Shown here: piece by piece, positions 1,540 through 62,256 of the stretch
Numbering within the stretch: the first letter of the stretch is position 1
Layout of the letters: each line of letters starts with the position of its first letter
Source: Phoronis australis
Lineage: Eukaryota > Animalia > Phoronida
Assembly: GCA_002633005.1 (NCBI GenBank)
Contig: NMRA01000974.1
Coordinates: forward strand, 1 to 64,000
DNA: 64,000 nucleotides
Reading direction: 5' to 3'
Program-made: the position numbers and the translations under genes
The notes under the pieces: generated by a model
Databases searched by the model: none
What the model saw: the letters and a program-made list of their open reading frames with translations, nothing else
What the model was told of the DNA's origin: nothing

Positions 1540-4500
1540 CTACTTCACCTGTTGTAGGAGGGCACCCAATTTCTCATGCAGTTTCTGTATATTTTCAATA
1601 GCGCCACTATCGAGTGTAGGAATCTCCATATTCTCCACTTCTGCTGCAGCATCCAGAAGAATCTACAATGGAAGCAAGACATATGTCAACACAAATGCTA
1701 CATAATCACATCAAACTACAATTTTGTGACTTTCACATCAAATTAACATTTCTTTAGAATTGGGCGGGTTTCAAAAACACCGAATTGCTGTCAATAACTG
1801 AAATTACATACAGCGCATACAAAACTATTGGAATTGAAAAAAGCACAAAGCTGGTGCTTGGTAACAAGCGGACCCTTGAGAGAAGAGTGTGATATGCAGT
1901 GCAGACTGGAGCTGGACTGACTTTCTTACCTGCCTTGAACCGTCCCCTGTCCCCTGCACTGCCAATGGACTGCCTGCCATGGACATCACTCTTTCACCTG
2001 GTTTAGGGTTACGCAACATGCCTGGTGTTACTGGTAGCCTACAAACACAAAGTTCACACTCATAACTATAGTCACGGATGTGACTGTGTATTAGTTGAAG
2101 GCAAACAAACAGATTGGGGTGGTGAAAGGAAATGTGAATTGAGTAGTACCAATAAATGTTTCAGCTTATGTCGGAATTTCAGCAAATGTGCAGCTCTAAA
2201 ACAGCGAACAGAACTGTACCTATTCCAAGGTACCTAAACTACACGGTCAACGGACTCATAAACACGGGCACGGACGCATGAACACGACTCACGGACCTGC
2301 AAACACCGTCCACTGACTCACAAACACGGGAACGGACTCACAAAACACGATCCACGCACCCAAATACACGGGACACGGACTCATATTCACGAGGAAACAC
2401 GGTTAACGGACTGCCAAACACGGGTCACGGACTCATCGGCTTTCTGGGTCAGCTGACATCTTCATTTTGTTCGTAACCCGTGTTTGGCGGTCCGTTAACC
2501 GTGTTTCCTCGTGAATATGAGTCCGTGTCCCGTGTATTTGTTTGCGTGGATCGTGTTTTGTGAGTCCGTTCCCGTGTTTGTGAGTCAGTGGACGGTGTTT
2601 GCAGGTCCGTGAGTCGTGTTTATGAGTCCGTTGACGGTGTAGTTTAGGTACCTTGTATTCTGGTCTGCTCTGTATACAGAGGGAGACAACTAGAAAGAAT
2701 AATAAAAATGGCCATTAAACACCACAGTGACAAAAAAACATCAAATCCATCCCAAAACAGAAAGGTGCTGTTATAACAGTAACTGTTTGCTAAACTTCAT
2801 GAAAAGCCGCCAATAAGAACTCTTAAGATACAGAAGCAAACATCAAAGTCTGGAGAGCACAGTGGTAGCCAGACTCATCCAAAAGTCACATGGGAAGACG
2901 TCACATTTATAGGATAACACATCCAAAATTACAGTCACACATCAACAGGAACACTTCTCTTTTTGGGGCGGTTTGGCAGATAAAATGGCAAATGCCAAAA
3001 TGGGCTCAAATTTTCTAATGTCTACTAGGTGGCGCAGAATACATCAACAAAACAAGAAAGCATTGCAGTCTCCTTAATGGATTGAAACCTATAAGCCAAA
3101 TTTCATGAAAATACACTGAGAAACTCCAAAGATACAGAGGTAAACATAAAAAGCTTAAATTGCCACCAAGGGCACAGTGGTAGTCAGATCGGTCCAAAAT
3201 TTGCTGTGATCTGTCGTCAGCATCATAAGAACACAACGGTCGAATCTTATCAAGATCTTGCGAGGAGTTTAAGACATACATCAGCGAACGGTGAACTGAG
3301 ATGATGGCAACATGCAGCCACACATGTGAGCAAATAAAAATGACCAATAGGTGACATAAATATACCAAATCTACTAAAAAATAACAAGATGTCATCATCT
3401 TATAGAAACCAAGGAACACAAAAGGAACAGAGGAAAACGTAAAAAAATAAACTTGTCACTAAGAGTACACTGGTTGTCGGATTCGTCTGAAAATTTGCTA
3501 ATGCTGTCTCATCCATGATAGGAATATGTCGCCAACATTTCACAAAATTCCACCATGGAGATTCAGCAGTGGATACTGGAAGGGGGAGATGAAGACAGGA
3601 TAATGCATAGATTCAGCAGTGGATACTGGAAGGGGGAGATGAAGACAGGATAATGCATAGATTCAGCAGTGGATACTGGAAGGGGGAGATGAAGACAGGA
3701 TAATGCATAGATTCAGCAGCGGATACTGTAAGGGGGACATGAAGACAGGATAATGCATTGACATATAAATAATATTGACTGCATAAGAACAAACTAAAAG
3801 AAAGCTTTCTTCTCCATATATTCTGGCACACAAACAGGCATTTGTTCACTTTACGCTGACTAAATTCATGAACTCATAGACTCATGAGCTGACTATCAAA
3901 TATGATTGACCAACTGCTAAACACTGCCCAACTCACAAAAACACGCTTACGCACCCCCAAAACCACAGTCCAATGACTCACAAAGTCATGACTAGACTAA
4001 CATATATGACATACAAGGTCCCTGTCAGGCAGTCAGTGAGCCGAGTTTATGAGTTGGGAGCCATGTTTTTGGCTACATAGACAGTGGTTTGCAAATTCAG
4101 CATCATGTGTTGTGGTCAGCAAGCTCCGTTTACCAGTCAGTGAACTGAGTTTACCAGGCCAACGAGTCATTTTCAGTCATGAACAATGTCCATGAGTACA
4201 ACAGTCATGTTGTTTTCACCCCTTAATGTGGAGAAAGGTTCAACATAGTACTTAGTGTTCACAGACACTTTAAGGATACTAAGCTGATCTCACTTAGAAT
4301 GGGAAGAGGCTGTTATTGACAAAAGGAACAACCAGAAATTGACTCAGAGTGCAGCCACATACCTTGGATCAAACTTGGGTGTAACAAGAGGAGTCTCCCA
4401 GCCGGCTCGACTGGGTCCACCCTTCACAGCAGGCGTCCTCAGCTCTCGCGTCTGGGTTCGCCTATAACAGACACAGTTGGGGACCGTTCACAACTATCGC

Positions 4501-7500: not shown

Positions 7501-10500
7501 CTGAAGGACACAACAGTAACACTGTAGGATACAATAGGGACACTGTAGGATACAGCAGGGTAATTATAGAATACAGCAAAGACACAGTAGAATACAGCAG
7601 AAACACTGTGTGATACAGCAGGGTACACTACCAGAGCCTTTTCAGAGATCTGTAAGTTTGACCACACATCACTACAGACTGTTTCGAAGGTTTTATTAAT
7701 CAGACATCACACGGCTGTTGCTAACCTTGATTTGGCTACTTTTTGATCAATTGAGTTGGCTAGTGAGTCCACGATCTCATCTGTTGTCTTCATCTCTATA
7801 TCAGATACATTGCCTCCAAGCTCTGAAAACATAATGAGATATATGTATACTTAACTGCCATTCACAATGTAGTAAATTCTTGAAACTTTGTTTGGATATT
7901 CCCTCTGCTTGAGCAATTACCCAATTCAAATGCACAGCTTTTAGCATCATTACAATGTTCAACGCTGAACAATGATCTGCCCATTTTGTGACATAAGTGG
8001 CTACTTTCAGAATTGTCAAGAGGACCCAAAAAATAAGACCACATCGAATTAGACCAGTTGCAAATACAAATCAGCATTCTTATCTACAATTAGTCACTGC
8101 ATGATTTATTCATTTAATATTGCTTAAAATCACATTTCCTCACCACGTGCAACCTGAATACGGAAACCGTTTAACCTCAAAAACTTTTTTATGATAGCTT
8201 TTGCCATTGTCTAAATAAATTAACAGGTCACTTGTAACGTATCTATGCAAAAGACTTGGAATGGTGAGCAATGTAACTGTTCAGCTATTAAATAAAACAT
8301 TCTTAGTCAAGCATGCAACACCTACATATTATTTCTACTGCAGCTTTAATAGATTCTAAGGGAGAGTTTCCACATACTTACTCATGAAATCAGATCTTTT
8401 CATGTCTCTTATTCTCTGAAACAACAGACACAAGTCAGTAAAAAAGATTTCGACTACAAGTTTACAGCTACACATAAGCAACAAATCATGCCTCAACCAG
8501 TAAGCCTACAACCACTTCACAAGTAAGTTTAGTTAGATCAAGATCAAAGATAACTGGTAGAAGAACAGAGACAATCTATGAAAATACCGTTAACTGCCAG
8601 TTCCCCACACACAATACAGAACAAGAACAGTGCCCATTATTGCATTGCAAACAGTATGTTTCTTGGAGTGTTTATTAGTGTCACGAAAATGGCCACAAGA
8701 TGATACAAAATTATCTAACACGTCCACAAATAGTAACATCTCAATAACAGAAACCTATTTGCCAAATTTCCTGAAAATCCATCTTGCAACTCCAAAGATA
8801 CAGCAGCTATCGTGAAAAAAATAAAATTACCACAATGAGGAACAGCAGAAGATGGATCTGTTCAAAAAGTTGTCACCTGTTGCCACATTTATAGGAATAC
8901 ACTTGCCAAATTTGACAAGAGCAACGCGTAGCATTGAAATGCACCCACGAATGCATCGCAAATTGTGTGCTTTTAGGGTTGTTTATTTGTGTCATAAAAA
9001 TGGCCAGTAGATGGCGCAAAAATGTACAATCCACACGAAGACGGGCACATGTCATTGCTTCTTTAATAGAAAGCTATACACTAAATTTCATAGAAATCTG
9101 TCACGGAATTTCAGAGAAACAAAGGAAAACAGAATGAAATGAAATACCCACTAGGGGGCACACTGTTCATTGGATCTGCCTGAAAGTCGTCATTGTCTGT
9201 TGTTAGCTTCATATAAATACACTTACTAATTAAATTTAATAAAGATCCTGCAGTGGGTTTAGGAGATACAGTTATGGGAGTAAAACAAAACAAAACTACC
9301 ACTAGGAGGCGCCACAGCAGTCAAAGTTGTCATCGTCAACCGGCCTCTTAACACTGAGAACATATACGCCAATTTTCAAAACCATCCTTAGAATGATTTG
9401 GTTGATAGAGGGTAGACACCAAAATAAAAAAACAGCAAAAATGGCCACTAAGTGGCGCACAATACCATGATTCCTTCCGAAAATGGGAGGATAGCGTCAT
9501 CTCACCAATAGATATTCAATAATTTTATGAAAATCTGTTGAGGACCTTTGAAGATACAGAGGTAAACGTAAAATTAAAGTTGCCACCAGGGGGCACACCA
9601 GTGCCAGATCCATCAGAAATTGTCATCACCCGTTGTCAACATCATGTTAAATTTAGTAAAGATCCTCCAAACAATTTAGGAGATACAGCCATGGGCGCAA
9701 AAAACAAAACTGCCATTAGGAGGCACCACAGTAGTCGAAGTCATCAGAAAATCACTGTCAGCTGTCCACTTCATTGTAAAAACATACATGCCAATTTTCA
9801 CAATTATCTTGAAAGGGGTTTGGTTGATAGAGAGGTGGACACCAAAAAACAGTAAATATGGCAACTAGGTGGCGCAAACTAGATCGAATCCATCTGATAA
9901 CAGAAAGATGGCGTCACCTCACTAACAGAACCCTGTACACCAAATCTTATGAAAATACGTTGAGCAGCTTTGAAGATACAGAGGTAAACGTAAAAAAAAC
10001 TTGCCACCGGGGGGCACACCGGTAGTCAGATCCGTTCGAAAGTCGTCATCATCCACTGTCATCATCATATAAATGCCCTCACTAAATTTAGTAAAGATCC
10101 TGCAAACGGTTTAGGAGATAAGAGCCATAGGTGCAAAAAACAAAACTGCCACTAGGAGGCACCACAGTAGTCAAAGTCATCAGAAAATCATCGTCAACCG
10201 TCCTCTTCATAGTAAGAACATACATGCCAATTTTCACAATCACGCTTAGAGCGGTTTGGTTGATAGAGGAGTGGACGCTAAAAAACTCGAAAACAGTAAA
10301 AATGGCACAAACTACGTCAAATCCATCCGAAAAAGGGAGGACACCGTCGTCTCACTAATAGATGCCTATAAACCACATTTCGTGAAAATATGTTGAGGAG
10401 CTTTGAAGATACAGATGTAAACGTAAAAAAACTAAAATTGGCAATAGGGGGCACACAGAGGCACTATGAAGAGGTACACAGAAAAAATAAAACTGCCACA

Positions 10501-23581: not shown

Positions 23582-26500
23582 TTATCCAACCATGCTTCGT
23601 TTTCGTCCCCTTAAACGAACTTCGTCTAATTTCTTCAGAACTTCTGCGACACCCTGGCCATATCCATCGGAGTATGCAGTGAGTAATGAGTCGAACAACT
23701 TCTCTGTGTTTGGATGTGTGCTGAGGAAAGCTCTTTCCAATACATAGAGATCAACACCCTTGTCTTCAGCCAAGGACTCAATATAACTAAGTCCAAAATC
23801 GATCATGACAAGATCAAGGTTTTCTGTGTTCTTAAGCAACATGTTTGATGTAGTGAGATCACCATGAATTATGTTATTCTTGTGCATCAGTGCAACAGTT
23901 TTGCCCATCTTCTCCATTAAAGGCTGCAGTTTGTTGTGAACATCAGAGGAAATGTCCTTCTGAACTCCAGCAATGTAGTCTCGTACTGTTGTTGCATTTG
24001 TGAGATGCTCCATGTAAATTTTGTAATTTGTCAAATCCACAAAGTACACAGCAGGAGTGACCACACCTGAAACAAAATATCAGTATGAGAGGTTAATATG
24101 GGCAGGATTGGCCACACCTGAATAACATGCCTACAGTAACGAGATTTTAAACAAGACTACACAGAGCATTGAAAGGTGAGTGCGGTAACAAACTGTATGC
24201 TTCTAGGGGTGTTTATTAGTAGGCATGTCATAAAAATGCCCATTAGATGACCAAGATACAATACGTTGAACCTGCCCGAAAATAGAAAGGCGTCATCTGA
24301 ATCCAGAACTGTTTTGCTACACTTTGTGAAAATCTGTCCAGGAACTCCAAAGATTACGGAGATAAGCATTATACAGCCAAGATACATCAAATCCATCTCT
24401 AAATGGAAAGGTACTGTTTTTACTGTACAAACTATTTTTTCCAAATTTCTTGAAAAACTGTGACAGTCAAAGAACTCTGAAGAGAGGCAAACGCAAAAAA
24501 TAAATTGCATCTATGGTGGTAGTCAGAACTTTCCAGAAATATTGAGCAGATATTTATACGTTAACACTAAATTTCAAAAAGCTGCAAAGAATTCATCCAT
24601 AGATGCAAAAAATCTCCACTAGGGTGTGCCACAGTTGTCAGAACCGTCCAAAAACCTCAGTCATACTCACAGTCTTCTCATTAGGAATACGTCTGATAAG
24701 ATTTTAAAATCATCTTTTGAGCAGTTTGCCCAATTTGATACTAAACTTATGGCATAAATTTATTACCAGAATACTAGTAGTGACTGGTGATTTTGTTAGC
24801 ACCTGCATTCAACAGTGGCATGATATAGGGTAAAGTGGAAATGCGTATTTTGCAAGAGCAACATGGAGTTTTGAAATGCACCCATGAATGCATCGCAAAT
24901 GGTGTGCTTTCAGGGTTTATTTGTATCATAAAAATGGCAACTAGATGGTGCAAAACTGTAAAATCCGTCCGAAAACAGGAACATGTCATTGCTTCATTAA
25001 TAGAAAACTATTCATCATATTTAACAAAAATCTGTCAAGGAACTTCAGAGAAACAAAGGAAAAAAAATAAAATGAAATTACCACTAGGGAATACAGCATT
25101 CGTTGGATCCACCTGAAAGTCATCGTCTGTTGTTAGCTTCATATAAATACACTTACTAAATTTAATGTAAAGATCCTGCAGTGAGTTTAGGAAATACAGC
25201 TATGGGCGCAAAACAAAACTACCACTAGGAGGCACCACAGTAGTCAAAGTCGCCATCATCAAACGTCCTCTTCACACTAAGAACATGCGCCAATTTTCAA
25301 AACCATCCCTAGAATTATTTGGTTGACAGAGGATTGGATGCTAAAAAATAAACAGACTCAAAAACAGCGAAAATGGCCCCACAAGGTGGCACAAAATACC
25401 TCTATTCCATCTGAAAACAGGAGAATAGTGTCATCTCACCAAAAAATGCCTTTTTTCAATTTTATGAAAATCTGTTGAGGACCTTTGAAGACACAGAGGT
25501 AAACGTAAAGAAATAAAGCTGCCACTAGGGGACACACCAGTAGTCGGATCCATCTGAAAGTCGTCATTGTCCGTTGTCAACATCACATAAATAGACTTGC
25601 GAAACTTAGTAAAGATCCTGCAAACAGCGATGAGTGCAAAAAAACAATACTGCCACTAGGAGGCTCCATAGAAGTCGAAGTCGTCGGAAAATCATCGTCA
25701 GCCGTCCACTTCATAGTAAAAACATACATGCAAATTTTCACAATTATCCTGAAAGCAGTTTGGTTGATAGATGAGTGGATGCCAGAAAACAGACTCGAAA
25801 ACAGTAAAAATGGCCACTAGGTGGCATAAACTTGGTTGAATCCCTCTGAAAATGAAAAGATAACGTCACCTCATTAACAGATGCCTGTATGCCAAATTTT
25901 ATAAAACTACATTGAGGACCTTTAAAGATACAGCGGTAAGCGTAACAAAATAAAAGCCACTAGGTGGCACACCAGCAGTCAGATCTGTCCGAAAGTTTTC
26001 CTCTTCTGTTGTTAACATCATATAAATACACTTACAAAATTTAGTAAAGATCCTGCGAACGTTTTAGGAAATACAGCCAAAGGCGAAAAAAAAACGGCCA
26101 CTAGGAGGTGCCACAGCAGTCGAAGTCGGCGGGAAATCATCGTCAGCTGTCCTCTACATAGCAAGAACTCGTACATGCCATTTTCACAATCATCCTTTGA
26201 GCGGGTTGGTTGATAAAGCAGTGGATGCCAAACACCAAGTAAATACACTTGCTAAATTAAGTAAAGATCCTGCAAACGGTTTTAGATACAGCCATGAGCG
26301 CAAAAAAAACGAAACTGCCACTAGGAGGTGCCACAGTAGTCAAGCTCGTCGGGAAATCATCATCAGCTGTCCATTTCATAGTAAAAACATACACGCAAAT
26401 TTTCACAATTATCCTGAAAGCCGTTTGGTTGATAGACGAGTGAACGCCAAAAAACAGACTCGAAAACAATAAAAATAGCCACTAGGTGGCGCAAACTACG

Positions 26501-29008
26501 TCAAATCCACCTGAAAACGGGAGGATAGCGTCATATTACTAATAGGTGTCTATATACCAAATTTCATGAAAATCCGTTGAGGACTTTTGAAGCTACAGCG
26601 GTAAATGTAAAAAACTAAAATTGCTACTAGGGGGCACACCGGTAGCCGGATCTTTCTGAAAATTCGCTCATGCTGTCCCATCCATGGAAGGAACACATGT
26701 GCAAAATTTCATGAACATACATCAAGGGGTTTTGGAGATAGAGCAGCGGACATCGGACGGACGGATGGAGATGACGGCATAATGCATCCACATATAAATA
26801 TGTGGGCGCATAAAAATGTGTCTATGTGATCGACACATTTCGTTTCGCAAGGGAAACCCACCGAAACTTTGTGATCATCATGTGGTCTGCACCTGCATCA
26901 CCGGCACTTTCCCACATCGGGTGGAACAACTGGTTCACACGCTGGGCGGAACAACGGAAGCGCAAACCTCAAATCGGTTCTCCGCCTACTTGCTGGGGGT
27001 AACTGTAATGCAGTCCTGATGTAACTGTGTTCTACGTCTACCACTAGCCAGTACGGAGGCAGGCTGGCGCCAATCTGGCCATATGTGGACAGCGGAGCTC
27101 AAACATACACACATGCAGGGACACTACTGGCATGGTGGGGACTGTGAGGATAAGCCCAGGTAGAATTAAGAGCTGAGTGTGAGCCATTTGTTTCGCTTTC
27201 AGAAACGTTGCGTTGAAAGTCCACTGAAATGTGTTGTTTACCGGCCAATTGTGTCGCTCACTCCAAAGCCTTGAAAATATTACAAAGGCAAGCCAAACGT
27301 AGCCGATGTTACCCGTGAGGGTCGAGTGCCTGGTTTCCGGCATGACGGGGTTGCCGCCGGCTTTGCACTTTTCGAAACGCTGCAGACCAGAGTGGTCAAC
27401 TTGGCCTGCAGGCTTTGTGCAGGCCAAGGCAAAGCACTGTGCAGTCCCCCCCCCCCCACCATGGACCCTACAGTATCCGCGAAGTCCCCAAAAATGTGTC
27501 GTTTACCGGCCAATTGTGTCAATTTCAGAAACGTGTTGAAGAAATTTCAAAGACCCAGACATGAATGTGTCGTTTACCAGCCATTTGTGTCAATTTCTGG
27601 AACGTTGCATTTAAAAAACTTTAAAGTCCCCTGAAATGTGTCATTTATTGTCCATTTGTGTCCCGTCAAGTTTTCAAAGGAGCTTTGAAAATATAACAAA
27701 GGTAAACAAACGTAGCAGATGTTAGCCATACTCAACAGCGTTGAGCGGCAGGTCTTCCGCTTGGCCAGGGTGGCACTGCCGGCTCTGTGCTCAGCGAAAC
27801 GCCGCGGTCCACATGGTCAAGTCGGTTTGGCTTGATCAGTGCTGCATGGTGCCATGAAAATTAGACGACTTAAAGCCGAAGGCCGGGGATCACCAGGTTA
27901 TTGGCGCTACAATCCTCCCTATGATAAAGTGTCCATGAGTATCATTGAAAATTTTCATGAAGTCCCATGAAATGTGTCGTTAATTGGTCATTTGTGTTGC
28001 TTTGTGAAAGGTACCAAGGATTCCTTTTCTTTCTAAGTTCCCCGGTTATGTGTCGTTTATAGGACATTTGTGACGCTTTCTGAAAGGTACAACCCACAAG
28101 GCGAAGTCAAGTTCAGTCATGAAGCATACACCAGATCTTGATGGTCCGCTGGTTTGGCTCTGATTGGCAAATCGCCGTGGTCCCCATGGCCATGCCCGTC
28201 ATGATGACTCTTCTGTTCACAAGCGGTCGATGTCTGGGGGAGCGGTCATGATGCTTTAAAAGTGCCGCTATAGTTGTGTCCCTGATGTGTCCTTGATGTG
28301 TACCTGAAGCGCTGCAATCCACATATGGCCAGATCCACTGCCCGCCTCCATACTAGCAACAAGCAGGGAGCGCACAGGATCAAGATTCATTCCAGTTGCC
28401 CCCAGGTTGGCGGAGGACCGATTGGAGGTTTGTGCACCTGTTGCTTCGTTGTCGGAAAAATGCCGGTGCACATGATCGGGTACTGCCCGACCATCCGGAA
28501 GTTTCGGCGGGTTTCCCTCATGAAACGAAATGTGTTGATTACACTGACACATTTTAAAATGCGAGTTTTCTCTTTACCCTATATCGTGCCATATTATCTC
28601 TGCATTTGCTTTAGAGTGTAGTTATAAATGGCACCACTTGTGTCAGATTACATTTGGCCAGTTTTTATCCACATCGTTCCAAAGCTGCATATTATTCACA
28701 TACTACCACTACACTATCGCAGCATACATCCCATCGCCCGGCTAAATGCCGCAGGTCAACCGGGGCAACGTGTTAGACAACAATCTGATCAATCATAATC
28801 ATAGTATCATACCAATTGTCCTACAGCGAACCATTGCTCGAACTTCAGACTTTGTTCTTTGAGACGTGAGTGATTTGTCCAACACTGGATGCCTGTATTT
28901 CTTCGGGAACCTTTCCTTGACAACTGTCGATCGTCCATAAAACACCATACTATAAATTCTAGCTTCTGCCCCCTGTTTGATAAGAGTCACTTCGCTTTCA
29001 TGCGCCAT
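23582..29008 (-). CDS. TP53RK: EKC/KEOPS complex kinase TP53RK/PRPK (Bud32), 226 aa. Exons 29008-28813 and 24066-23582
   Basis: IKQGAEARIY, VKERFPKKYRHPVLD, IIHGDLTTSNMLL, IDFGLS, EDKGVDLYVLERAF and C-terminal RGRKRSMVG. A phase-1 GT-AG intron joins the two exons. Confidence 0.97.
24150..24735 (+). mobile_element. Old degenerate HINE-like copy
   Basis: AACAAGAC start, GTCATAAAAATGCCCATTAGATG and CCACTAGGGTGTGCC. Confidence 0.6.
24816..28591. mobile_element. Foldback-like DNA element (~1.8 kb without the insert) with diverged ~350-bp TIRs. The left TIR is split by a HINE insertion
   Basis: TGGCATGATATAGGGTAAAG at 24816 is the reverse complement of CTTTACCCTATATCGTGCCA ending at 28591. The arms continue at 26812-27130 versus 28280-28558. 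Internal repeats AAATGTGTCGTTTACCGGCCAATTGTGTC. Confidence 0.8.
24852..26815 (+). mobile_element. HINE/pearl-like element, long complete copy 2
   Basis: CAAGAGC start, subterminal ATGCACCCA, 12 motif-bearing subunits, (GGAC)n microsatellite and terminal hairpin ATGCATCCACATAT-AA-ATATGTGGGCGCAT-AAAAA. Confidence 0.9.
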
Positions 29009-29290
29009 TTTAAATTTTAAAGCAAAGGTGGTTGTATTTTATTGTTTTCAAATCACAAAGAGTGAATCGTAGGCCTCGTGTTTTTCTTACTTTACTCCGT
29101 TGTGTGGCATTTGTTGCCTTTCTCTATTTCAGCGCAATAATTACCCTATGAACAATGTACCTAAAATTGGAGTTCTTGTGTAAAAATGTTTTCAAAATTT
29201 ATTTCGATAACTTGTGTCATTACCATTGCCCACGATAATAGTGGACTAAAGACGGTAGGACTGATAGTGAACACTGGAGAACAGCTGAAA
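29009..29290. promoter_or_regulatory. Compact bidirectional promoter between TP53RK and FITM2
   Basis: The divergent start codons are only 282 bp apart. Confidence 0.65.
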
Positions 29291-30203
29291 ATGGCTAAAG
29301 GTCGCAGTTCCGATTCATACAAAACTTCAAATGACAAGATAGGACTGAGAAAGAAATCCATCCCTGGGCCAACAACTCCAGTAGACTTTTTTGGAATGAT
29401 TGTTATGAAAATTGCGAAGAAAATCCTGCTCGTTGACACCCATGTAAAGATCGGATTTTATTGCGTTGTAGTGATGGTCGCTTCCGTGATATGTGATTTG
29501 TTTCACCCACCCATGTTCTATCTGGGGTCGAAAAATAGCGTTTTTAATGTTTACTTTGTGAAAATAGGATGGGGATGGACACTGGCGTTATGCGGATCAT
29601 TTATATTTCTCACTAGCTATACATATTGCTGTGGACATCTGAACTTGGTGTGTAGACNATTTAGCTAGACTTGCTGTGGGAACTGTTGAGTGGTGGGTGT
29701 GGGTGAACCTGTTCAACACAGTGGAGCATGCTTCTGGCTTCTGTACTAAAGATGGACATGATAGCAAAACCTTGTGTCTCAACTCCGGACATCTGTGGCT
29801 AGGATTTGATATATCAGGACATACATTTTTATTGCTTCACTGTCTACTGACTATCTCTGAAGAATGCAAGTGTTTGAGACATTGGGAAAGAGTTGTAGAT
29901 AACTTCAAAACGGATGATGAACGTAAAATGCCTAACCAACTCCCTGCACAGGATTTATGTCAACTTAAAGTTTCATACTATAGTTTGGGGCCATTCATTA
30001 AACTGAATGCTGCACTCTTGTCATTCCTGATGGTTCTTTGGGAAATGATGCTCTTGATTACTGCTCTGTATTATCACACGTTAATACAGAAGTTCATTGG
30101 TGCTAGTATTGCTATAGGTACATGGTTTGTTACGTATCAAGTCTGGTATAAATGTTCCTGGTCACCAGGTCTTCCAGGGCACGGTGTTATAGATGTAGCT
30201 TAG
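29291..30203 (+). CDS. FITM2: Fat storage-inducing transmembrane protein 2 (acyl-CoA diphosphatase), intronless, ~303 aa
   Basis: KNSVFNVYFVKIGWGWT, FIT signature GFDISGHTFLL...ISEE and YYHT. Deleting the single N at 29658 fuses the two ORFs (CRHLARLAVGT). Confidence 0.93.
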
Positions 30204-33200: not shown

Positions 33201-33600
33201 GACATGTCGTTTCACGCTTCCAAGATTTAATAATATTTCACTGGCTAAGTTTACCTTATAAACATGTACGCACAGACAAACACCAGGCCCACTCGATCAC
33301 TGCCTATCACTGACAAGCATAACTTTGACGAAACGCACCAGCACGTCCAGCGGCAGGCATGGTCGAGTTTCGCAAGGGATGGGATTGAAATTGCCGGACT
33401 AAGTTACGCACATAGGCAGTGTTTCGACATAATTTATTGTTTTCATTATTAATATGGCGTTGTTTTACTTTGCTTTCATACTATACCTCAAGTTTAGTCA
33501 TTATCAAACCTCATGTTTTGATTGCCGATTCAGTGGAGACTGGCCACAGAGTCAAATGTCGATAGTGTTGCAACAACGCGGCGACCCCAATGAACCCACT

Positions 33601-34188
33601 ACAAGACTGCACCACAAACAGTGTGCTTCAAGGAGCGTTTTTAGTATCATAAAAATGACCATATTGCATGGCGGAGAATATGTCGAACCCGTTAGAAATT
33701 GGGAAGGCGTCAAATCGTCTGACTTTTATAGAACTATTTGCCAAAATTCATGAATATCCACTCAGGCACTCCAAAGATACAAAGGCAAGCGTAGAAATTA
33801 AAATTGCCACAAGGGGGCACAGCGTTCAAAAAGTTTATATTGATATAATGATTCTTCAGTTTGAATTGTTCGGTGGATAGAGAGGCTAATGACAACACGC
33901 TCTCAAAACAATTAAAATACAATTAGTCCTTCCGAAAATTGGAACGCGCCATCGCCTCCTTAATAAAAAACTATTTGCCAAATTTCAAGAAAATTCATTA
34001 AGGAACTCAAAAGATACCGTGGCAAACATAAAAAAATTGCCACTTAGGTCAGAGCGGTATTTGGACTGGCCCGTCGTCGTCTGTCAAATCTTATAAAGAT
34101 CCTGCAAGGTATTTACAACATACAGCAGCGGACGTCGGACTGAGACGACGGCCATATGCACTCGCATATAAAAATGTGGGTGCATAAG
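33601..34188 (+). mobile_element. Short, older complete HINE-like copy
   Basis: ACAAGAC start, TTGCCACAAGGGGGCAC, GCAGCGGACGTCGGAC and terminal ATGCACTCGCATAT-AA-AAATGTGGGTGCAT. Confidence 0.75.
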
Positions 34189-37387: not shown

Positions 37388-40272
37388 CTAATAAGAGAAA
37401 TACACATTGAAATTAGTAATTTACTAAAGGGGCATGTACGCTGTTTTTTTTTTTGACAAACATTAATTTAGTCCGTATAGGAGGTTCAGCAGAGTCACAG
37501 GAGAAATCTGCGTGGCAACCTAGGGCGGGGAGAATCCTAGAGTTTGCGACTACACGGAAAGTGCAGTGGCACTGGTGATTGTGAATCGGGGTTGTATTTG
37601 CTGTCTTGACACTAGCTGGCGCCTCTGTGAAAGCAAATACTAACAGGTAAAAAGTGTTTAGTAACATCTCCACTGAGTATTTGTTAAATTTTAAGTTCAG
37701 GTCGTCAAATTGGGAATACCGAGTTGTCAAATCTCCGCTCTAAACAAACACGAAAATCAACTTTAAGTGAGTTCATTTTTGTTACAGACTATAGAAAATG
37801 TAGGTATTAACCAAATAGTTATCAATCGTATGAAATGTTGCGAAAAAGTTTGAAACCGTGTCATGAGATATTTTAGGAGTTTACCACGCCTATCCTTGCT
37901 GTGCAAGCCGGGGACGTAGGATGACTCCCTACAAGGTTTAGTCGGTTTGTGTGTATGTTGCGACTTTGGAATAGACTTATTAGCTTGGATTCCCATCGCA
38001 TTACTAGGAAATGTTTTGAATGGGACTTAAGCCATTGCGTACAAAACTGGTCAGCTGAACTAAAATGTATTTTCAAATTGTGAAATGTTAGTCGTGTTTT
38101 TTTGCATTCAAGTTCGTCTACGATATTAAAGCATCAATGAATTCTATAATTATGTTCAGCAATGGCGAGGACTGAAAATTGGGAGGAGAGTATTAGGTTA
38201 AAAACCAAATATGAGAATTTGCATGACATTTAAGGAAAATTTTGAAATTGAGGAGTATATATATATATATATATACTCTTATTTTCCTGGAGTAAGAAGG
38301 TTTTTATTTTGTCAGTTCAGATTTGATATTTTTCCACTGGAGATAGAGGTTGGAAGGTAGACTTACATTGAACGAGAAAATAGGTTATGTCGCTTATGTC
38401 ACTGTATTACGATTTACATAGAAAACTATGTGAGGCAGCAAATTGCACTCCACTTTTTCAATTTTCTGATACACATAAGCTCAGCTTTTTAATATTTAAT
38501 TTGTTCTGGGAGCTTACCGTTTTTGTTAAGAAGCATTTTTAAACGTAAGAAGTGTTTGTATACATCCATGTAATCAGTGACTTATAAGCTTGAAATGAGC
38601 TGGGTGTGTTTTTAAATTCTTGATTAATTGTTTAAATTTAAGGACGAATCAATTCAAGAAACTAACATATTACTATAATATCCATCGTTTTTGCGACTGC
38701 TTTCTACTAGCACTAACGGTAAGTTGTGAATGTCTCACTCATCTTTGAAGACTGACACTTTTCATTGCAGTTTACGATTTTAAACTTTTGTTTCCGAATA
38801 AGGCACGAGTGTTCTGAATCAATCTAAATGCGAAATGAATTCCTATCAAAAGACGCCGGTTGATCTGGGTATCAAGGATTTCAACGCAGCTAGACCCCAC
38901 GCAAAGTCGATGCAGGCCGGAGTAGAATTTCCTCAGATAGGAACATTGTATTATTCAATCATTTATTTGCTACATTCGAGTACTAGATAATGGTGGTCGG
39001 TATTGATATTGGGATAGGCAGGGATATGTGACAAGCTGGGGGAACGGGGGAGATGCTTTAGTCCGCTTTAAAGCTTAGTGTACTTGATTTAATTCCATAA
39101 GCTCTCAGAATCCTACGTAGGACGATAGCGATGATCTCGCAAATGGCAGGCTTCTGTATTGGTTGATAAAATTTGGTTGGATGTGAAATTAGTAGTCCAA
39201 CCGCCACACGGCTGCATCACCTGTGGATGCAGCAGGCACACAGCTTTAACCGATTTACTTCTTGATTGATAAAATAAAGCATACTAAACAATATAAAACT
39301 GTTACCTGAAAAGATTGGACAAAATGCAATTATTTCCCTTATTTTTTTCTAAATATGCAAATGAAAGGTCACTTGACCAGAAAGGTGTGACCATGTGGCC
39401 ATAAAGAAACATAGCTGTCAACGGATGATTTTTAACTTATGGCCAAGTAAACTACACTATAGGTAATAACGTTGAAATAAACTTAATTGTACGAGTAACA
39501 TGAAAAAGAGCAAAGTTTAATGACAGGTAAGTCTGAACATGTCGGGCTTCATTATATTTTCATTCGAAATTATTACCATCTACCGGAAGTAACTATCAGT
39601 TGACAAGTTTCCCATGCAGGGCCACCATCGCTGTCCCAGAGAGGCCAATGTCGCTGGTAGTGCATTTCCGATAATGTTCAGTCACGAGCCGGCAAGAAAT
39701 CTCCGTTTACCCCCGCACCTGTTGATTGTAGTCTTTGTGTGTTCAAATCATATAATCGTTAGGCTTAACTTACAGTTGATATTTTCGTTTCGGTAATTGG
39801 ATCCTATTTATTGGGTAACCAGACACTGTTTTTGCGCGTTTTACTGATATCTTTTATGTGTATGGCTCGCCTTTCCATGAAGTAGGTGTTGATATTGATG
39901 AAACAGATCTACACTGGAGAGAGGAAAATGAACTGTTTTACTAAAATCTTTATCAAATTATAAACGGAGAAGTGAAATTGACAACCAATTGACTATTCAT
40001 TTGATATTTACAACTTTATCTTTGTGTTGAGTTGTTTGGTAATAACAGCTATGCATTACAAGCACTAACAACTTTAGTCAGAGATATAAAGATCACTGAG
40101 TATATAATTATAAAGGCTTAAAAAGCTGGAAATTTCCGGTCACGGCATGAGGGCCCGAAAATTATGAGGTTGGTCGAAAGAAATGGCGAATGTCAGTTCT
40201 TCCTGAACCCAAGAGATCATCTCTAAATTGAGTAAGGAACAAGACAAGACCAACTTTATAACACGCTTTTGA

Positions 40273-46004: not shown

Positions 46005-46428
46005 ACTACACGGTCAACGGACTCATAAACACGACTCACGGACCTGCAAACACCGTCCACTGACTCACAAACGCGGGAACGGACTCACAAAATACGATCC
46101 ACGCACCCAAATACACGGGACACGGACTCATATTCACGAGGAAACACGGTTAATGGACAGCCAAACACTACACGGTTTACGGACAAAAATGAAGATGTCA
46201 GCTGACCCAGGAAGCCGATGAGTCCGTGACCCGTGTTTGGCGGTCAGTTAACCGTGTTTCCTCGTGAATATGAGTCCGTGTCCCGTGTATTTGGGTGCGT
46301 GGATCGTGTTTCATGAGTCCGCTCCCGTGTTTGTGAGTCAGTGGACGGTGTTTGCAGGTCTGTGAGTCGTGTTCATGCGTCCGTGCCCGTGTTTATGAGT
46401 CCGTTGACCGTGTAGTTGAGGTACCTTG
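46005..46428. mobile_element. Second, inverted copy of the palindromic MITE, with the left terminus lost
   Basis: Near-identical to 2226-2655 and ends GGTACCTTG. The spacer AAAATGAAGATGTCAGCTGACCCAG is the reverse complement of the copy-1 spacer. Confidence 0.9.
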
Positions 46429-57500: not shown

Positions 57501-60500
57501 AAATCTTACAGGAAACTAAAAAAACGTTGAAGAAATGCAAAGTCAGGTTAAAAGACGCTTTCACAAAGATTCACCAATATTTGTTTCGGTCACCTTTTGA
57601 ATTTAAACCAGTTATCTTGTTCATAAAACATTAAACAAATTTTTGAGAAATCGTGTACATTAGACAAGCTACAAATTACTACCAGAAAAGATGAACGTCA
57701 GTCTAAACTCTAGTTTTTGTTACTTCGAGTTGAAAAGTATCAAGCTCAAATTTCATAGCATGCGCACACCCAGCCTAAAAATGTGGGAAGTGCTCGAATT
57801 TTTGAGAACGTGGACCTTTTGCTAAAAAAATAAAAAACGGGGTATGTTCAGAGCTACGAATTGTGCATTCGCCGAATTTTGGTAGTTCCTGTCATTTTAG
57901 TGAGCTTTTGTCTTGTTTTCTACTTTTTCCGACATTTTGAATCTCTGAGGCGGACATTTTTGCCCCCTTCGCCAGACAGAGGGTTGGACTTGTTCGAGCC
58001 CCTCAAGCCCCCCCAAGGGTGTGCGTATGACGTACTAAGGTTTTCATGTTGATCGATACATACTTGACTAGTATTTCACCAGATGGCGTAGTTACAGAGG
58101 GTATCACAATAAAATGTCTATACTAAACCTGTTCGGACGTAGAGGCCACTTTCTCACAACGCGCCACCATTCCTGTGATGTCATTTCCGGGATATTTCCA
58201 TAAGCACATTCTGAATTTTTTTCCGAATCCATCGTCGAGCTACAATCACAACAGATGCGAAACAATGACACTTGCGTGCATTACGCAGTGAATGAATTAG
58301 TTCAACAGGAACATGTTCAGATTGATTTAGTTTTCAAATTACACTAAGCGCTACATCTCATTTCCCTAAAGGCAACTACTATGCTTCTCACCGGTTGCGA
58401 TTATAATAGGAACTTACCAAACAGAGCCCAGACTTATGTAGTCGGCCTCTTTTGCTTGGCTATTAGTGGGGAACGGAGATGAGTGTCAGCATTAACCGCT
58501 GCTTGTCCGTGGCAACATTCTTTTCCGCTAATTTTAGACACTGTGGATTATAAAAACTAAACCAGGCATTACAAAAACTGACTGAACTTTTTCATAGCTT
58601 GAACGACGAAAATCGTTAACTACACCAAAAGAAAGTAACGCGCATTACAACTGCAGTTCATGTGTCTCAACCTCTAATGTGTAAGCTGCCTGAGCAACAG
58701 AATGGGACAACGTGACTTGTGTACAGCACCATTTATCAGAGTAAAGTGACCTTAGTACCCCCAAATATACATTGTTATTTGAATGGGAAGCGCTTCATGT
58801 AGAAATTCATGACTTCGACTTTACCCCCGCGTGGGACCACAGATAGACTCTTTACCTATCTTATGCATCCGGGCAGATGGGCATGAGCTGTCACGTGACC
58901 CCTCTTGCGGCATTTTCATTGCCCATTTCCTGAGATGATGCATTTTTACGTATCGTTTACACATCGTCATTGTTATGTATTGTACTTTGTCATAACCATA
59001 TTGCCCATGTTTGCCTACTATTAGTCTCCTTTCCGTCGCTGGGAACAAAAAGTGGGACTTACCTATTCACATAAGATACCGTAGTTATATCGAACACACA
59101 AGGTTAAATAGCTAATCTATAGTAATTGCCAAAAACTTGAGGTATGACTCGTCCAGGTTTAGCCCATGCCTGGCTTAACACCCACACCCTGTTTCTTAGA
59201 TTCTTAATTTAAGCGCCCTGGGCAGTAGGCCTACGGTATAACACGAATTTCTGTACTAGGCATTATTGGATTAGACAAGAGACCGTAGGCCAGTTCGGAA
59301 CAAAATTTTCTCCATATGAATGATTTTTATCAGTTCCTTAGTGATGGCACGGTGTTTCTGACCAATCAGCTATATTTATCCCAATGTTTCTGACTACAAC
59401 TAACAGTGTCTTGTGAAGTTACAGGTTGGTTCTCAGTCAACTTGATGCTCAACAAGAGCGTTGAAATGCGCCCACGAATGTATCGCAAATGGTGTGCTTT
59501 TAGGATTATTTATTTGTATCATAAAATGGCCACTGGATTGCGCAAAAACGTACAATCCATCCAAAAATGGGAACATGCCATATTTCATAAAAATCTGTCA
59601 AGGAACTTCAGAGAAACAAAGGAAAACAGAACAAAATGAAATTGCCACTTGTGGGCACAGCGTCCTTTCCATCCGCCTGAAAGTCGTCGTCTATTATCTT
59701 CATACAAATTCACTTACTAAATTTAATATAGATCCTGCAGTGGGTTTTGGAGATACAGCTACGAGCGCAAAACAAAACATAACTACCACTAGGAGGCGCC
59801 AAAGTAGTCAGTCACCATCATCAAACGTCCTCTTCACACTGAAAACATGTACGCCAATTTTCAAAACCATCCCTAGAACGATTTGGTTCATCGAGGGGTG
59901 GACGCCAAACACAAGATTTGAAAACACCAAAAATGGCCACCAGGTGGTGCAAAATACCTCGTTTCCATCCAAAACAGGATGATAGCGTCCTCTCACCAAT
60001 AGATGCCTATATTCAAAATTTTATGAAAATCTGTTGAGGACCTTTGAAGATACAGACTCTGGTAAACGTAAAAAACTAAAATTGCCACTAGGGGGCACAC
60101 CAGAAGTCAGATCTGTCCGAAAGTCGTCGTCGTCCATTGTCAACATCATGTAAATACACTTGCTAAATTAAGTAAAGATCCTGCAAACGGTTTAATAGAT
60201 ATAGTCATGAGCGCAAAAAAAACACGAAACTGCCACTAGGAGGCGCTACAGTAGTCGAACTCGTCGAAAAATCGTCGTCAGCAGTCGACTTCATAGTAAA
60301 AGCATACAAGCAAATTTTCACAATTATCCTGAAAGCCGTTTGGTTGATAGACGAGTGGACGCGAAAAACAGACTCGAAAACAATAAAAATGGCCACTAGG
60401 TGGCGCAAACTAGGTCGAATCCATCTGAAAACGGAGAGATAGTGTCACCTCATTAACAGATGCCTATATGCCAAATTTTATGAAAATACGTTGAGGACCT

Positions 60501-62256
60501 TTGAACATACAGAGGTAAACGTAAAAAAAAAATAAAATTGCCACTAAGAGGCACACCAGTAGTCAGATCCGTTTGAAAGTCGTCGTCCTCCGGTGTGAAC
60601 ATCATATAAATACACTTACTAAATTTAGTTAAGCATGATCCTGCGAACGGTTTAGGGGATACAGCCATAGGCGTTAAAAAACAAAACTGCCACTAGAAGG
60701 CGCCACAGTAGTCGAAGTCGTCGGAAAATCATCGTCAGCCGTCCACTTTATAGTAAGAACCTATATGCCAATTTTCACAATCATCCTTTGAGCAGTTTGG
60801 TTGATAGAGGGGTGGACGCAAAAAAACAGACTCGCAAACAGAAAAAAATGGCCACTAGGTGGCGCAAACCACATCAACTCCATCTGAAAACGGGAGCATA
60901 GCGTCATCTCACTAATAGGTGCCTATATACCAAATTTTATGAAAATCCGTTCAGGACTTTTGAAGAGACAGAGGTAAACGTAAAAAACTAAAATTGCCTC
61001 TAGGGGTACATCGGTAGTCGGATCCGTCCGAAAGTTCGCTCATGCCGTCCCATTTACAGAAGGAACACATGTGCAAAATTTCATGAACATACGTCAAGGC
61101 GTTTCATGGAAATAGAGCAGCGGACGCCGGACGCCGGACGGACGGACGCCGGACGGACGGATGGAGATAACGGCATAATGCGTCAACATATAAATATGTG
61201 GGTGCATAAAAACAACTGACATCAAACTCGTTCTCATCTTTGTACAGATGGAAAATGTGAGAGCAGGGATGTGCGATCGGAGGACACAATACACTCGCGA
61301 AGCAGTTGTGGCGAGAAATCTCCGGTCATGGCATTACGACTAATTCAACCATCCAATCTCACTGACCAATCACTACAGTGGCCGCCATTCAGTAAGGGTT
61401 GCTAGTGAGTTCTCGCGCAAATATACACGTGAAAACTCGAGTGATCTTGCCTTTGCGACTTTTCCGCGTTTACAGCCGAATACATCCTGATTTTGTAGCG
61501 ATAAGTTGTCTCATTTAGAAGTTATGACATCGTCAACTAAAAGTGTTTTGTGTCTATAATGAAAACAGACCGGTGACTGGAATATGGAATATTATGCCGC
61601 GAACTCGATCCAGTAATACCGTACACGCGTACAATAAGGCCCAAAGCGCGAAGCATAATTATGCATTTTACTGAAAGTTAATTTAAAACCAAAAAGGAGC
61701 GCATTGTTAAGATACGATGATAAAGGTTGACGGCGTTGACGTGTTTTCAATGTAAAGATTAACAATTTAAAGGGCTACTAAGTAGGCCTACGTCTGTCCG
61801 TTTTCCTAAAGGAGACTGGCAGACTTGAAAACTTTCTTCACGAGGAGCCACAATTGGGCTCTCGTGCTTTTGCTCAGGTGTTTTCTGCAATGGGCCCAAC
61901 CATGAGGCCTGCGCACGTCTGATGCACCGCAAATGACATCAGACCACCTGCACTGTTTTTTAAGTACGCCTACGGACAAAACTTGTGCACAAAGACTCAC
62001 TTGCGCCTATAAGAGAACCTTTAATGTATGCGCCTCTGCCTGCGAACACTTTCGCAAACCCGATACAGCTCATTCGCAGGCGTAAGGACCTAAATATGGG
62101 GACAGATCATCTCTTGAATTCAGTTGCTTCATAAGAGTTTTTGATACACTATTGAAACAAGATTAAGTACATACCTTGTAAGCATGCTTTGCTATACCTT
62201 CGTCATTTTCCACGGCCTCGAGAAGTTTCATCGTTTCATTTAGGGTAAAAAGCTCC
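51569..62256 (-). CDS. PhyH-family Fe(II)/2-oxoglutarate dioxygenase (ectoine hydroxylase / L-proline trans-4-hydroxylase-like). Exons 62256-62175, 58239-58129, 56902-56811, 56628-56538, 53583-53454, 52067-51895, 51685-51569. The 5' end near 62306-62393 is unresolved
   Basis: [22 protein letters not shown]...[11 protein letters not shown] (HxD), [18 protein letters not shown] and [27 protein letters not shown] (distal His and 2OG Arg). GT-AG phases are consistent. The last exon is less certain. Confidence 0.9.
53309..53350. repeat. Perfect 16-bp GC-rich hairpin with a 10-nt loop
   Basis: AGACCGCCCCGAGTTG-ctccagcagc-CAACTCGGGGCGGTCT. Confidence 0.92.
54544..56244 (+). mobile_element. Non-autonomous Kolobok-like DNA transposon (1.7 kb) with a TTAA TSD
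   Basis: TTAA|AGGAGCATGCCACCC ... GGGTGGCATTCTCCT|TTAA. Internal ORF remnant [18 protein letters not shown] (55647-55850). Confidence 0.82.
57760..58029. mobile_element. ~270-bp GC-ended MITE, copy 3
   Basis: CATGCGCACACCC...GGGTGTGCGTATG, homologous to 43145 and 48583. Confidence 0.8.
59451..61212 (+). mobile_element. HINE/pearl-like element, long complete copy 3
   Basis: AACAAGAGC start, subterminal ATGCGCCCAC / GTGGGTGCAT inverted pair, 11 motif-bearing subunits in a ~457-bp higher-order trimer, (GGAC)n microsatellite, terminal hairpin and TAAAAA. Confidence 0.92.

What the first reader, a model, noticed from the sequence alone, without database searches (positions are those of the whole stretch)
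59451..61212. Mobile element carrying a phased array of co-oriented CTCF-like motifs (candidate portable insulator)
Seen: every ~140-160-bp subunit of this repeat carries one motif, e.g. TGGCCACCAGGTGGTGC (59934), TGCCACTAGGGGGCAC (60083), TGCCACTAGGAGGCGC (60231), GGCCACTAGGTGGCGC (60391, 60850) and GGCCAGTAGATGGCGC (9002). All point the same way, with 10-12 per long copy (8915-10460, 24852-26815, 59451-61212). The motif is a GC-rich island that stays recognisable across the three otherwise divergent subunit types and in old copies. Established: the CTCF core consensus is CC(A/G)(C/G)(C/T)AG(A/G)(G/T)GGC(A/G), and TEs such as B2 SINEs spread single CTCF sites in mammals. Inference: a Helentron-type non-autonomous family may disperse multi-site insulator or loop-anchor arrays at about nucleosome-core spacing. 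It might use host CTCF to evade silencing, or it might shape chromatin domains. The motif could instead be the binding site of the element's own zinc-finger transposase.
Basis: partly seen in the sequence, partly recalled or inferred. Interest (0 to 1): 0.85.

Follow-up and report, generated by a model that had tools for sequence, protein, structure and literature searches.

The report
Rolling-circle transposon carrying CTCF-site arrays
A very common gene-less jumping element in a worm- or mollusc-like animal carries ten to twelve same-facing matches to the docking site of the genome-organising protein CTCF, which were spared while the rest of its internal repeat drifted, so the element likely recruits CTCF for its own benefit rather than serving the host as an insulator, though binding is untested.

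Summary
Copy 59451-61212 has 11 same-strand CTCF-matrix hits at p<1e-4 (shuffles: 0.41). The two other long copies have 10 and 12. The element is a non-autonomous Helentron (HINE, DINE-1-like) on the minus strand, in a lophotrochozoan: 5' subterminal repeat with hairpin, GTCC microsatellite, ~145-bp central repeats in an ABC higher-order unit, matching 3' subterminal repeat. All 8 high-information motif positions are invariant across the three unit types (flanks: 46 of 115 columns), and variation across 33 sites follows CTCF's tolerance (rho -0.70). A second HINE family with different ends, found in metagenome contigs, has the same layout. Oyster HINE repeats lack the searched cores. After insertion the sites erode like their flanks (copy-private changes 3/57 vs 15/414; old copies 30% vs 36%). 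The constraint therefore seems to act on transposing lineages, not on host copies. The spacing is ordinary HINE unit length, too short for a nucleosome between bound sites. Best reading: a selfish CTCF array, analogous to the gypsy Su(Hw) insulator. A host insulator or loop-anchor role is unsupported; binding is untested. New variant of a known kind; no description found in nine literature searches.

The parts
59451..61212 (-). Full-length non-autonomous Helentron (HINE), copy 3; element reads 5' to 3' on the minus strand
   Evidence: Ends and array; 84-87% identical to the two other long copies
61178..61207 (-). 5' subterminal repeat (61198-61207) nested in an inverted repeat (arms 61178-61191 and 61194-61207), preceded by a T5 run (61208-61212)
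   Evidence: the hairpin is eroded here (z -0.57) and better in copy 2 (z -2.38)
61121..61161 (-). GTCC-type microsatellite just inside the 5' end
59466..59475 (-). 3' subterminal repeat, 9 of 10 bases complementary to the 5' one; the 3' palindrome region is shortened by a deletion in this copy
   Evidence: copy 1 keeps an imperfect 12-bp palindrome at 8921-8932
59480..61110 (.). Central tandem array: 11 units of about 145 bp in the order A' B' C A B C A B C A B''; higher-order period 457 bp
   Evidence: units group by position across copies
59527..59545 (+). CTCF-like site, terminal A' unit, 12.6 bits
59642..59660 (+). CTCF-like site, terminal B' unit, 11.7 bits
59783..59801 (+). CTCF-like site, C unit, 21.7 bits
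59934..59952 (+). CTCF-like site, A unit, 22.4 bits
60082..60100 (+). CTCF-like site, B unit, 23.2 bits
60230..60248 (+). CTCF-like site, C unit, 22.7 bits
60390..60408 (+). CTCF-like site, A unit, 25.4 bits (p 9e-10)
60538..60556 (+). CTCF-like site, B unit, 11.4 bits; two changes private to this copy
   Evidence: the family majority differs at 60547 and 60549
60687..60705 (+). CTCF-like site, C unit, 21.7 bits; one private change
60849..60867 (+). CTCF-like site, A unit, 25.4 bits
60994..61012 (+). Eroded CTCF-like site, terminal B'' unit, 7.2 bits, 1-bp deletion
8915..10460 (-). Copy 1: 11 units, 10 sites; 5' end missing; flanked on both sides by older units of the same family
24852..26815 (-). 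Copy 2: full length, 12 sites, internal partial duplication; lies in the intron of a TP53RK gene (exons 28808-29008 and 23582-24070, minus strand)
33565..34187 (-). Old short copy with the same 5' hairpin; 1 of 4 sites intact
2698..3790 (-). Old copy with eroded sites and an internal 50-bp tandem repeat

Best explanation
This is a non-autonomous Helentron (HINE) whose central repeat unit carries a strong CTCF-type motif that was spared while the units diverged, likely because copies that recruit host CTCF would stay open or unsilenced and so get copied more often. Shown: HINE anatomy, the motif match, CTCF-shaped conservation between unit types, a second family with the same layout, and erosion after insertion. 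Inferred: (1) the host has a CTCF of conserved specificity; (2) it binds the array; (3) 10-12 sites about 145 bp apart, each behind an A-tract, leave too little room for a nucleosome between bound sites and would give an open, methylation-resistant donor; (4) that raises access for the Rep/Helicase of an autonomous partner; (5) selection acts on transposing lineages, and inserted copies are mostly passengers, although young ones may locally act as CTCF clusters.
For: Anatomy: against PMC4067079 (passages) and PMC7492417 (parts 1-2 of 7). Match: none of 5000 column-shuffled matrices reaches the real score on any of 4 units. Between types A, B, C: 8 of 8 high-information positions invariant vs 46 of 115 flank columns (p 0.001); flank identity 51-63%. 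Among 24 internal units with a site: 8/192 mismatches vs 408/3034. Non-CpG G/C only: 4/126 vs 146/901 (p 2e-5); per column 5 alleles vs 15.6 expected (p 0.002). With the one deleted site added back: 15/200 vs 527/3299 (p 0.0008). Entropy over 33 sites falls with CTCF information (rho -0.70, p 0.0009). Second family L006/L036: 147-bp units, microsatellite, a different terminal hairpin (z -7.8), same motif orientation relative to the ends, 2/88 vs 151/1425 (p 0.009). Family-wide polymorphic places: 0 of 57 motif bases vs 22 of 414 flank bases (p 0.09; only 40 of 133 rows shown). Erosion after insertion: copy-private changes 3/57 vs 15/414; old units 46/155 vs 658/1819 (p 0.12). The family is abundant in RNA on one strand. 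The CTCF motif is the top motif in open chromatin of an annelid (PMC7854359, passages). The survival-strategy idea is stated for SINEs in PMC3368268 (passages).
Against: No binding, accessibility or methylation data. The matrix is vertebrate and recalled; the host's CTCF was not found or examined. CpG positions inside the motif erode as fast as flank CpGs (9/36 vs 74/305), which gives no sign of protection from methylation in these copies. Oyster HINEs spread without the searched cores, so the site is not needed for HINE transposition in general. Across the three copies at matching positions the motif is not spared overall (19/79 vs 290/1159). Internal units are marginally spared (7/56 vs 201/818, p 0.05) and terminal units are worse than flanks (12/23 vs 89/341). 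In old units G/C positions alone still show some sparing (38/115 vs 303/685, p 0.025), which blurs the element-versus-host split. Units are related, so cell-level p-values are optimistic. In L006/L036 alone the entropy correlation is not significant (p 0.11).
Confidence: 0.5

Rival explanations
1. Host-adopted portable insulator: inserted arrays are kept by the host as chromatin boundaries or loop anchors.
For: Strong, co-oriented sites. Internal sites are marginally spared between copies (p 0.05), and old G/C positions partly spared (p 0.025). SINE-borne CTCF sites act as barriers in mammals (PMC3368268, passages). [quoted passage not shown]
Against: Copy-private changes hit the motif as often as flanks (3/57 vs 15/414). 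Only 1 of 20 old units keeps a 20-bit site. Copy 2 sits inside an intron, not between genes. Orientation-dependent CTCF looping is not established in spiralians and was not seen in echinoderms (PMC10658182 and PMC13317027, passages); amphioxus shows only a slight convergent bias.
Confidence: 0.15
2. The motif is a cis site for the autonomous Helentron's own protein, or for another host zinc-finger protein, and resembles the CTCF motif by coincidence.
For: Selection at the level of the element is what a transposase site would show. Nothing here identifies the binding protein.
Against: L006 has an unrelated terminal hairpin but the same motif. Variation tracks CTCF's position-by-position tolerance. 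AT-rich tandem arrays of the same motif occur in 14 sequence clusters of metagenome contigs, most not HINE-like by eye. No autonomous partner was found in the window, so its protein could not be examined.
Confidence: 0.12
3. Neutral passenger: one chance CTCF-like site arose in an ancestral unit and was multiplied by tandem amplification; it has no effect on the element or the host.
For: All sites descend from one ancestral site, so 33 hits are not 33 events. No overall sparing between the three copies. Tandem repeats with chance matches also exist in prokaryotes (11 hits in 596 Gb, e.g. L051, L059).
Against: The core stayed invariant while flanks fell to 51-63% identity between types, after CpG control, and in a second family. 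All 11 prokaryote hits are above 50% GC, whereas 25 of 47 metagenome hits are below.
Confidence: 0.15

Closest known systems
HINE / DINE-1 non-autonomous Helentrons (PMC4067079, passages) and oyster Cg_HINE elements (PMC7492417, parts 1-2 of 7, passages, supplement search)
   Same: 5' subterminal repeat with nested inverted repeat, GTCY/GTCC microsatellite, central repeats of about 140-180 bp, 3' subterminal repeat, T-rich ends, no target-site duplication, no coding capacity.
   Different: A three-unit higher-order repeat with one strong CTCF-type site per unit. Six CTCF-core strings occur only 2-54 times each in 3.37 million characters of oyster array tables (cells cut at 400 characters; other core variants not searched). 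The subterminal repeat is 10 bp here against 11-15 bp in the papers.
gypsy insulator of Drosophila, 12 Su(Hw) sites in 350 bp (PMC7168160, passages)
   Same: A mobile element carries a repeated array of about a dozen sites for a host insulator-type zinc-finger protein.
   Different: LTR retrotransposon, Su(Hw), about 30-bp spacing, function shown. Here a rolling-circle DNA element, CTCF-type sites, about 145-bp spacing, function untested.
B2 and other SINEs spreading CTCF sites in mammals (PMC3368268, passages)
   Same: Repeat-driven dispersal of CTCF motifs; protection from silencing proposed as the benefit to the element.
   Different: SINEs carry essentially one site per copy (recalled) and binding was measured. 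Here 10-12 sites per copy, core only: an upstream M2-like word (recalled) in 1 of 33 sites; invertebrate host.
ISY Helitron dispersing MSL recognition sites in Drosophila miranda (PMC7168160, passage)
   Same: A rolling-circle element seeds binding sites for a chromatin complex.
   Different: There the host adopted the sites; here the sites erode after insertion.
C. elegans Helitron minisatellites as source of PATC 'mechanical insulators' (bioRxiv 10.64898/2026.08.08.743475, passages)
   Same: Internal tandem repeats of non-autonomous Helitrons are linked to insulation.
   Different: That signal is protein-independent, absent from the element consensus and gained after insertion; this motif is in the family majority and lost after insertion.

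Membership tests
HINE (non-autonomous Helentron) | Subterminal inverted repeats a few bases from the 5' end and some tens of bases from the 3' end | tested here: met
   10-bp pair, 9/10 in copy 3 (61198-61207, 59466-59475) and 8/10 in copy 2; slightly shorter than the 11-15 bp
HINE (non-autonomous Helentron) | Short inverted repeat nested with the 5' subterminal repeat (DINE-1 type) | tested here: met
   14-bp arms, 2-bp loop, in copies 2, 3 and the old copy at 34156-34185
HINE (non-autonomous Helentron) | GTCY-type microsatellite inside the 5' end | tested here: met
   61121-61161
HINE (non-autonomous Helentron) | Palindrome or stem-loop after the 3' subterminal repeat | tested here: inconclusive
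   Imperfect 12-bp palindrome in copy 1 (8921-8932), eroded in copy 2, partly deleted in copy 3; folding z about -1 in all three
HINE (non-autonomous Helentron) | T-rich ends, insertion at TT, no target-site duplication | tested here: inconclusive
   Copy 3 has T5 at its 5' end and TT at its 3' end; no duplication shared by the copies; copies 1 and 2 lack TT at the 3' end; no empty site available
HINE (non-autonomous Helentron) | No coding capacity | tested here: met
   Only a 178-aa stop-to-stop frame through the repeats (not run against Pfam); no Rfam match at E<=1
HINE (non-autonomous Helentron) | An autonomous Helentron with the same ends exists in the genome | not testable with these tools
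   No whole genome is held for this window
CTCF binding site (core) | Match to the core matrix beyond chance | tested here: met
   the matrix is recalled
CTCF binding site (core) | Conservation concentrated on high-information positions | tested here: met
   Between unit types and among internal units; not between copies overall
CTCF binding site (two-part M1+M2) | Upstream second motif | tested here: not met
   1 of 33 sites has a recalled M2-like word upstream; A-tracts stand there instead
CTCF binding site (core) | Occupancy by CTCF | not testable with these tools
   No ChIP or ATAC run among the 8 runs listed
Chromatin insulator | Enhancer blocking or barrier activity; location at domain boundaries | not testable with these tools
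   No Hi-C or reporter data
Chromatin insulator (host-maintained) | Sites preserved after insertion | tested here: not met
   3/57 vs 15/414 private changes; old units 30% vs 36%; small samples

The most novel reading that the evidence does not exclude
Helentron central repeats in more than one animal lineage have evolved, under selection on the transposon itself, into nucleosome-length CTCF arrays: a selfish insulator that keeps the element open, transcribed and mobile. Each burst drops large numbers of 10-12-site CTCF clusters into the genome and transiently rewires domain boundaries in an animal group where CTCF's role is still unknown.
Probability: 0.25. Interest if true: 0.85.

Novelty: new variant of a known kind. 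Interest (0 to 1): 0.6.

Why it matters
Why HINEs keep ~150-bp central repeats is unexplained in the papers read; here one part of the unit is visibly constrained and names a candidate protein. It gives a direct test of the proposal that transposons carry CTCF sites to escape silencing, because selection can be split between transposing branches and inserted copies. It also matters for motif-based studies of 3D genomes in spiralians: one repeat family can supply very many strong, co-oriented CTCF motifs that need not be boundaries.

Tried and rejected
No whole genome is held, so no genome-wide consensus, empty site or autonomous partner could be sought. An exact 24-base unit-A pattern in viral contigs and a pattern joining this family's flank to the motif in metagenome contigs found nothing. 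The paired-motif pattern gave 1 viral-contig locus, not followed up beyond scoring. Profiles of units A, B, C match the 48 loci only at the motif or weakly (best E 0.002). With the motif masked, homology of L006 units to window units is weak (best p 0.011 of 6 tests), so common descent versus convergence is open. No Rfam family matches, so a SINE or structured-RNA reading has no support. A tRNA-like B box in unit A was considered by eye and dropped: one base short and no matching A box (recalled consensus). An apparent AACAA target-site duplication at copy 3 was rejected because CAAGAGC belongs to the element in all three copies. No RNA holder was listed by the run index; RNA evidence comes from the lay. 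The library strand was not calibrated against a host gene, so the direction of the RNA is open. Earlier-findings look-ups by sequence and by the full word set found nothing. One paper on CTCF distribution in animals was not held. Supplements of bioRxiv preprints were not seen, and Fig. 3 of PMC7492417 (consensus sequences) is a picture and was not seen.
Full report
Observation. The quoted motifs are all at the stated coordinates. I scored the window with the JASPAR MA0139.1 matrix, which I recalled; it comes from no call. Copy 59451-61212 has 11 plus-strand hits at p<1e-4 and 8 at p<1e-5; 500 dinucleotide shuffles give 0.41 and 0.03, and none reaches 20 bits. It also has one marginal minus-strand hit. 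The copies at 8915-10460 and 24852-26815 have 10 and 12 hits. An IUPAC search gives 22 matches in the window against 0.04 expected. Of 34 full units in the three copies, 33 carry a hit; one lost it by deletion. Spacing is 115-162 bp, median 145, over 28 intervals, with two deletion-lengthened gaps left out.

Host. The window encodes a TP53RK-like kinase, a FIT protein and a PhyH fragment. The best named relatives of the kinase are from Lingula, Paralvinella, Lineus, Tubulanus and bivalves at 60-64% identity, so the host is most likely a lophotrochozoan. No whole genome is held. Copy 2 lies in the kinase gene's intron.

Anatomy. Read on the minus strand, copy 3 begins with T5, then a 10-bp subterminal repeat nested in a 14-bp inverted repeat, then a GTCC microsatellite, 11 tandem units, the matching 3' subterminal repeat, and ends in TT. 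The 5' hairpin recurs in copy 2 and in an old short copy. It folds weakly in copy 3 (z -0.57) and better in copy 2 (z -2.38). The 3' palindrome is imperfect, eroded or deleted in the three copies. This matches the DINE-1/HINE description in PMC4067079 (passages) and PMC7492417 (parts 1-2 of 7 and passages). The units form an ABC higher-order repeat of 457 bp and mostly group by position across copies, so the array was fixed in a master element and copied whole. The family is abundant: 16,503 contigs of run X1 lie on one 471-bp period (the tool warns that depth is not a copy number).

Is the motif constrained? Between the majorities of A, B and C, flank identity is 51-63%. All 8 positions with more than 1 bit are invariant, against 46 of 115 flank columns (p 0.001) and 5 of 11 low-information motif positions. 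Among the 24 internal units with a site, mismatches are 8/192 against 408/3034. At non-CpG G/C positions they are 4/126 against 146/901. Counted per column, 5 alleles are seen against 15.6 expected (p 0.002). Adding back the unit with the deleted site gives 15/200 against 527/3299 (p 0.0008). The 9 terminal units were left out of these counts. Over all 33 sites, terminal ones included, entropy falls with CTCF information (rho -0.70, p 0.0009), and none of 5000 column-shuffled matrices scores as well on any of four units. Units are related, so the p-values are optimistic. Other blocks of the unit are also partly conserved (up to 9 of 14 columns against 12 of 14 for the motif).

When does the constraint act? 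Against the family majority in DNA contigs, copy 3 has 18 near-private changes in 471 bp: 3 in 57 motif bases and 15 in 414 flank bases (p 0.47). The 22 listed polymorphic places all lie outside the motifs (p 0.09). Only 40 of 133 rows were shown. Comparing matching units of the three copies, motif and flank differ equally (19/79 vs 290/1159); internal units are marginally spared (7/56 vs 201/818, p 0.05) and terminal ones are not (12/23 vs 89/341). In 20 old units the core differs at 46/155 positions against 658/1819 in flanks (p 0.12; G/C only p 0.025), and 1 of 20 keeps a 20-bit site. Motif CpGs erode like flank CpGs (9/36 vs 74/305). The simplest reading is that selection acted mainly in transposing lineages and that inserted copies decay. 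The samples are small and the split is not clean.

Relatives. A pattern of two cores 136-166 bp apart gave 47 metagenome loci. L006 is a HINE-like element with 147-bp units, one strong site each, a microsatellite and a strong terminal hairpin unrelated to this family's; L036 holds the same units. The motif points the same way relative to the ends and also follows an A-tract. Its core is spared too (2/88 vs 151/1425, p 0.009). Homology to the window's units outside the motif is weak (best p 0.011 of 6 tests), so descent or convergence is open. The hosts of these contigs are unknown. As a control, 596 Gb of prokaryote genomes gave 11 hits, none below 50% GC, whereas 25 of 47 metagenome hits are below 50% GC and fall into 14 clusters. 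The search was designed to find such arrays, and no scrambled-motif control could be run on the metagenome set. In the oyster tables, six core strings occur 2-54 times each in 3.37 million characters (cells cut at 400 characters), so the motif is not a general HINE feature.

Spacing. Oyster HINE monomers are mostly 140-180 bp, so the period is ordinary for the class. A median of 145 bp leaves about 126 bp between 19-bp sites, less than the 147 bp of a nucleosome core (established). A fully bound array would exclude nucleosomes rather than phase them; this is inference.

RNA. Two RNA runs lay 1,446 and 1,373 reads per million records on one period, 97% with the first mate on + in X6, and 78% of X6's reads are under 90% alike. 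The family is therefore transcribed abundantly, on one strand, from copies other than this one. In most stranded libraries this would mean the element's own 5' to 3' direction, but the strand was not calibrated, and a few strong host transcripts could explain it.

Mechanism. I favour a selfish CTCF array (0.5): the element recruits host CTCF, stays open, and is copied more often. PMC3368268 proposes this benefit for SINEs (passages). The gypsy insulator with 12 Su(Hw) sites and the ISY Helitron are the closest analogues (PMC7168160, passages). The CTCF motif is the commonest motif in open chromatin of an annelid, mostly single and at promoters (PMC7854359, passages). Orientation-dependent looping is not established in spiralians and was not seen in echinoderms (PMC10658182 and PMC13317027, passages), with a slight bias in amphioxus (10.1101/2022.01.04.475009, passages). 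CTCF motifs can also sit in silenced elements (PMC8555987, one passage), so a motif does not imply binding. Rivals: host insulator 0.15, neutral passenger 0.15, transposase or other protein 0.12.

Novelty. Nine full-text searches listed no paper on CTCF motifs in Helentron central repeats. I judged most listings by title and abstract start, and only 30 of 137, 30 of 64 and 15 of 64 papers were listed; subscription journals are mostly missing. The nearest is a preprint on protein-independent insulation from C. elegans Helitron minisatellites (10.64898/2026.08.08.743475, passages). Each ingredient is known; the combination, with conservation that appears to act on the element, seems undescribed. 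Earlier notes of this scan report CTCF arrays in other transposons and minisatellites; they are unchecked leads and suggest the theme recurs. Verdict: real, a new variant of a known kind, interest 0.6.

Noticed in passing
window 60440-60910, runs X6 and X7: The repeat family is very abundant in RNA (about 1,400 reads per million records on one 471-bp period) and 97% on one strand in X6; reads include the terminal unit next to the 5' end. Direction and source are unresolved.
   Followed up: partly
window 8634-10601 and 24218-26815: Two of the three young copies sit inside or directly beside older copies of the same family in the same orientation, which may reflect self-targeting.
   Followed up: no
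window 59929-59937, 60385-60393, 60844-60852: Type-A units have AAAATGGCC overlapping the start of the CTCF-like site, which resembles a YY1/Pho core (recalled); types B and C lack it.
   Followed up: no
L012, L017, L023, L025, L038, L040, L045 (one cluster); L019 and L028 similar: A 38-bp minisatellite with a very strong CTCF-type site in nearly every unit (up to 28 bits, up to 20 sites per contig) in several metagenome contigs.
   Followed up: no
L033 139-472 and 1070-1260: Foldback-like element with 158-bp units, each with one CTCF-type site; the arrays in the two arms face each other.
   Followed up: no
L011 456-620, L014 477-790: Another 146-148-bp tandem unit with one strong CTCF-type site per unit, unrelated to the window's family; no HINE ends seen.
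   Followed up: partly
window 28808-29008 and 29165-30203: TP53RK (minus) and a FIT-family gene (plus) start head to head within about 160-250 bp; the FIT frame shifts at an N near 29660, probably an assembly error.
   Followed up: no
window 2241-2640 and 46054-46413: A second dispersed element with 21-bp repeats arranged as inverted arrays occurs twice in the window.
   Followed up: no
window 35878-37467 and 35461-35859 (minus): A 529-aa coiled-coil-like frame and a 132-aa frame have no Pfam match; probably exons of one gene.
   Followed up: partly
L058 401-966: A 69-bp tandem repeat with a CTCF-type site in a 3-kb contig of a bacterial MAG; may be animal DNA in the bin.
   Followed up: no
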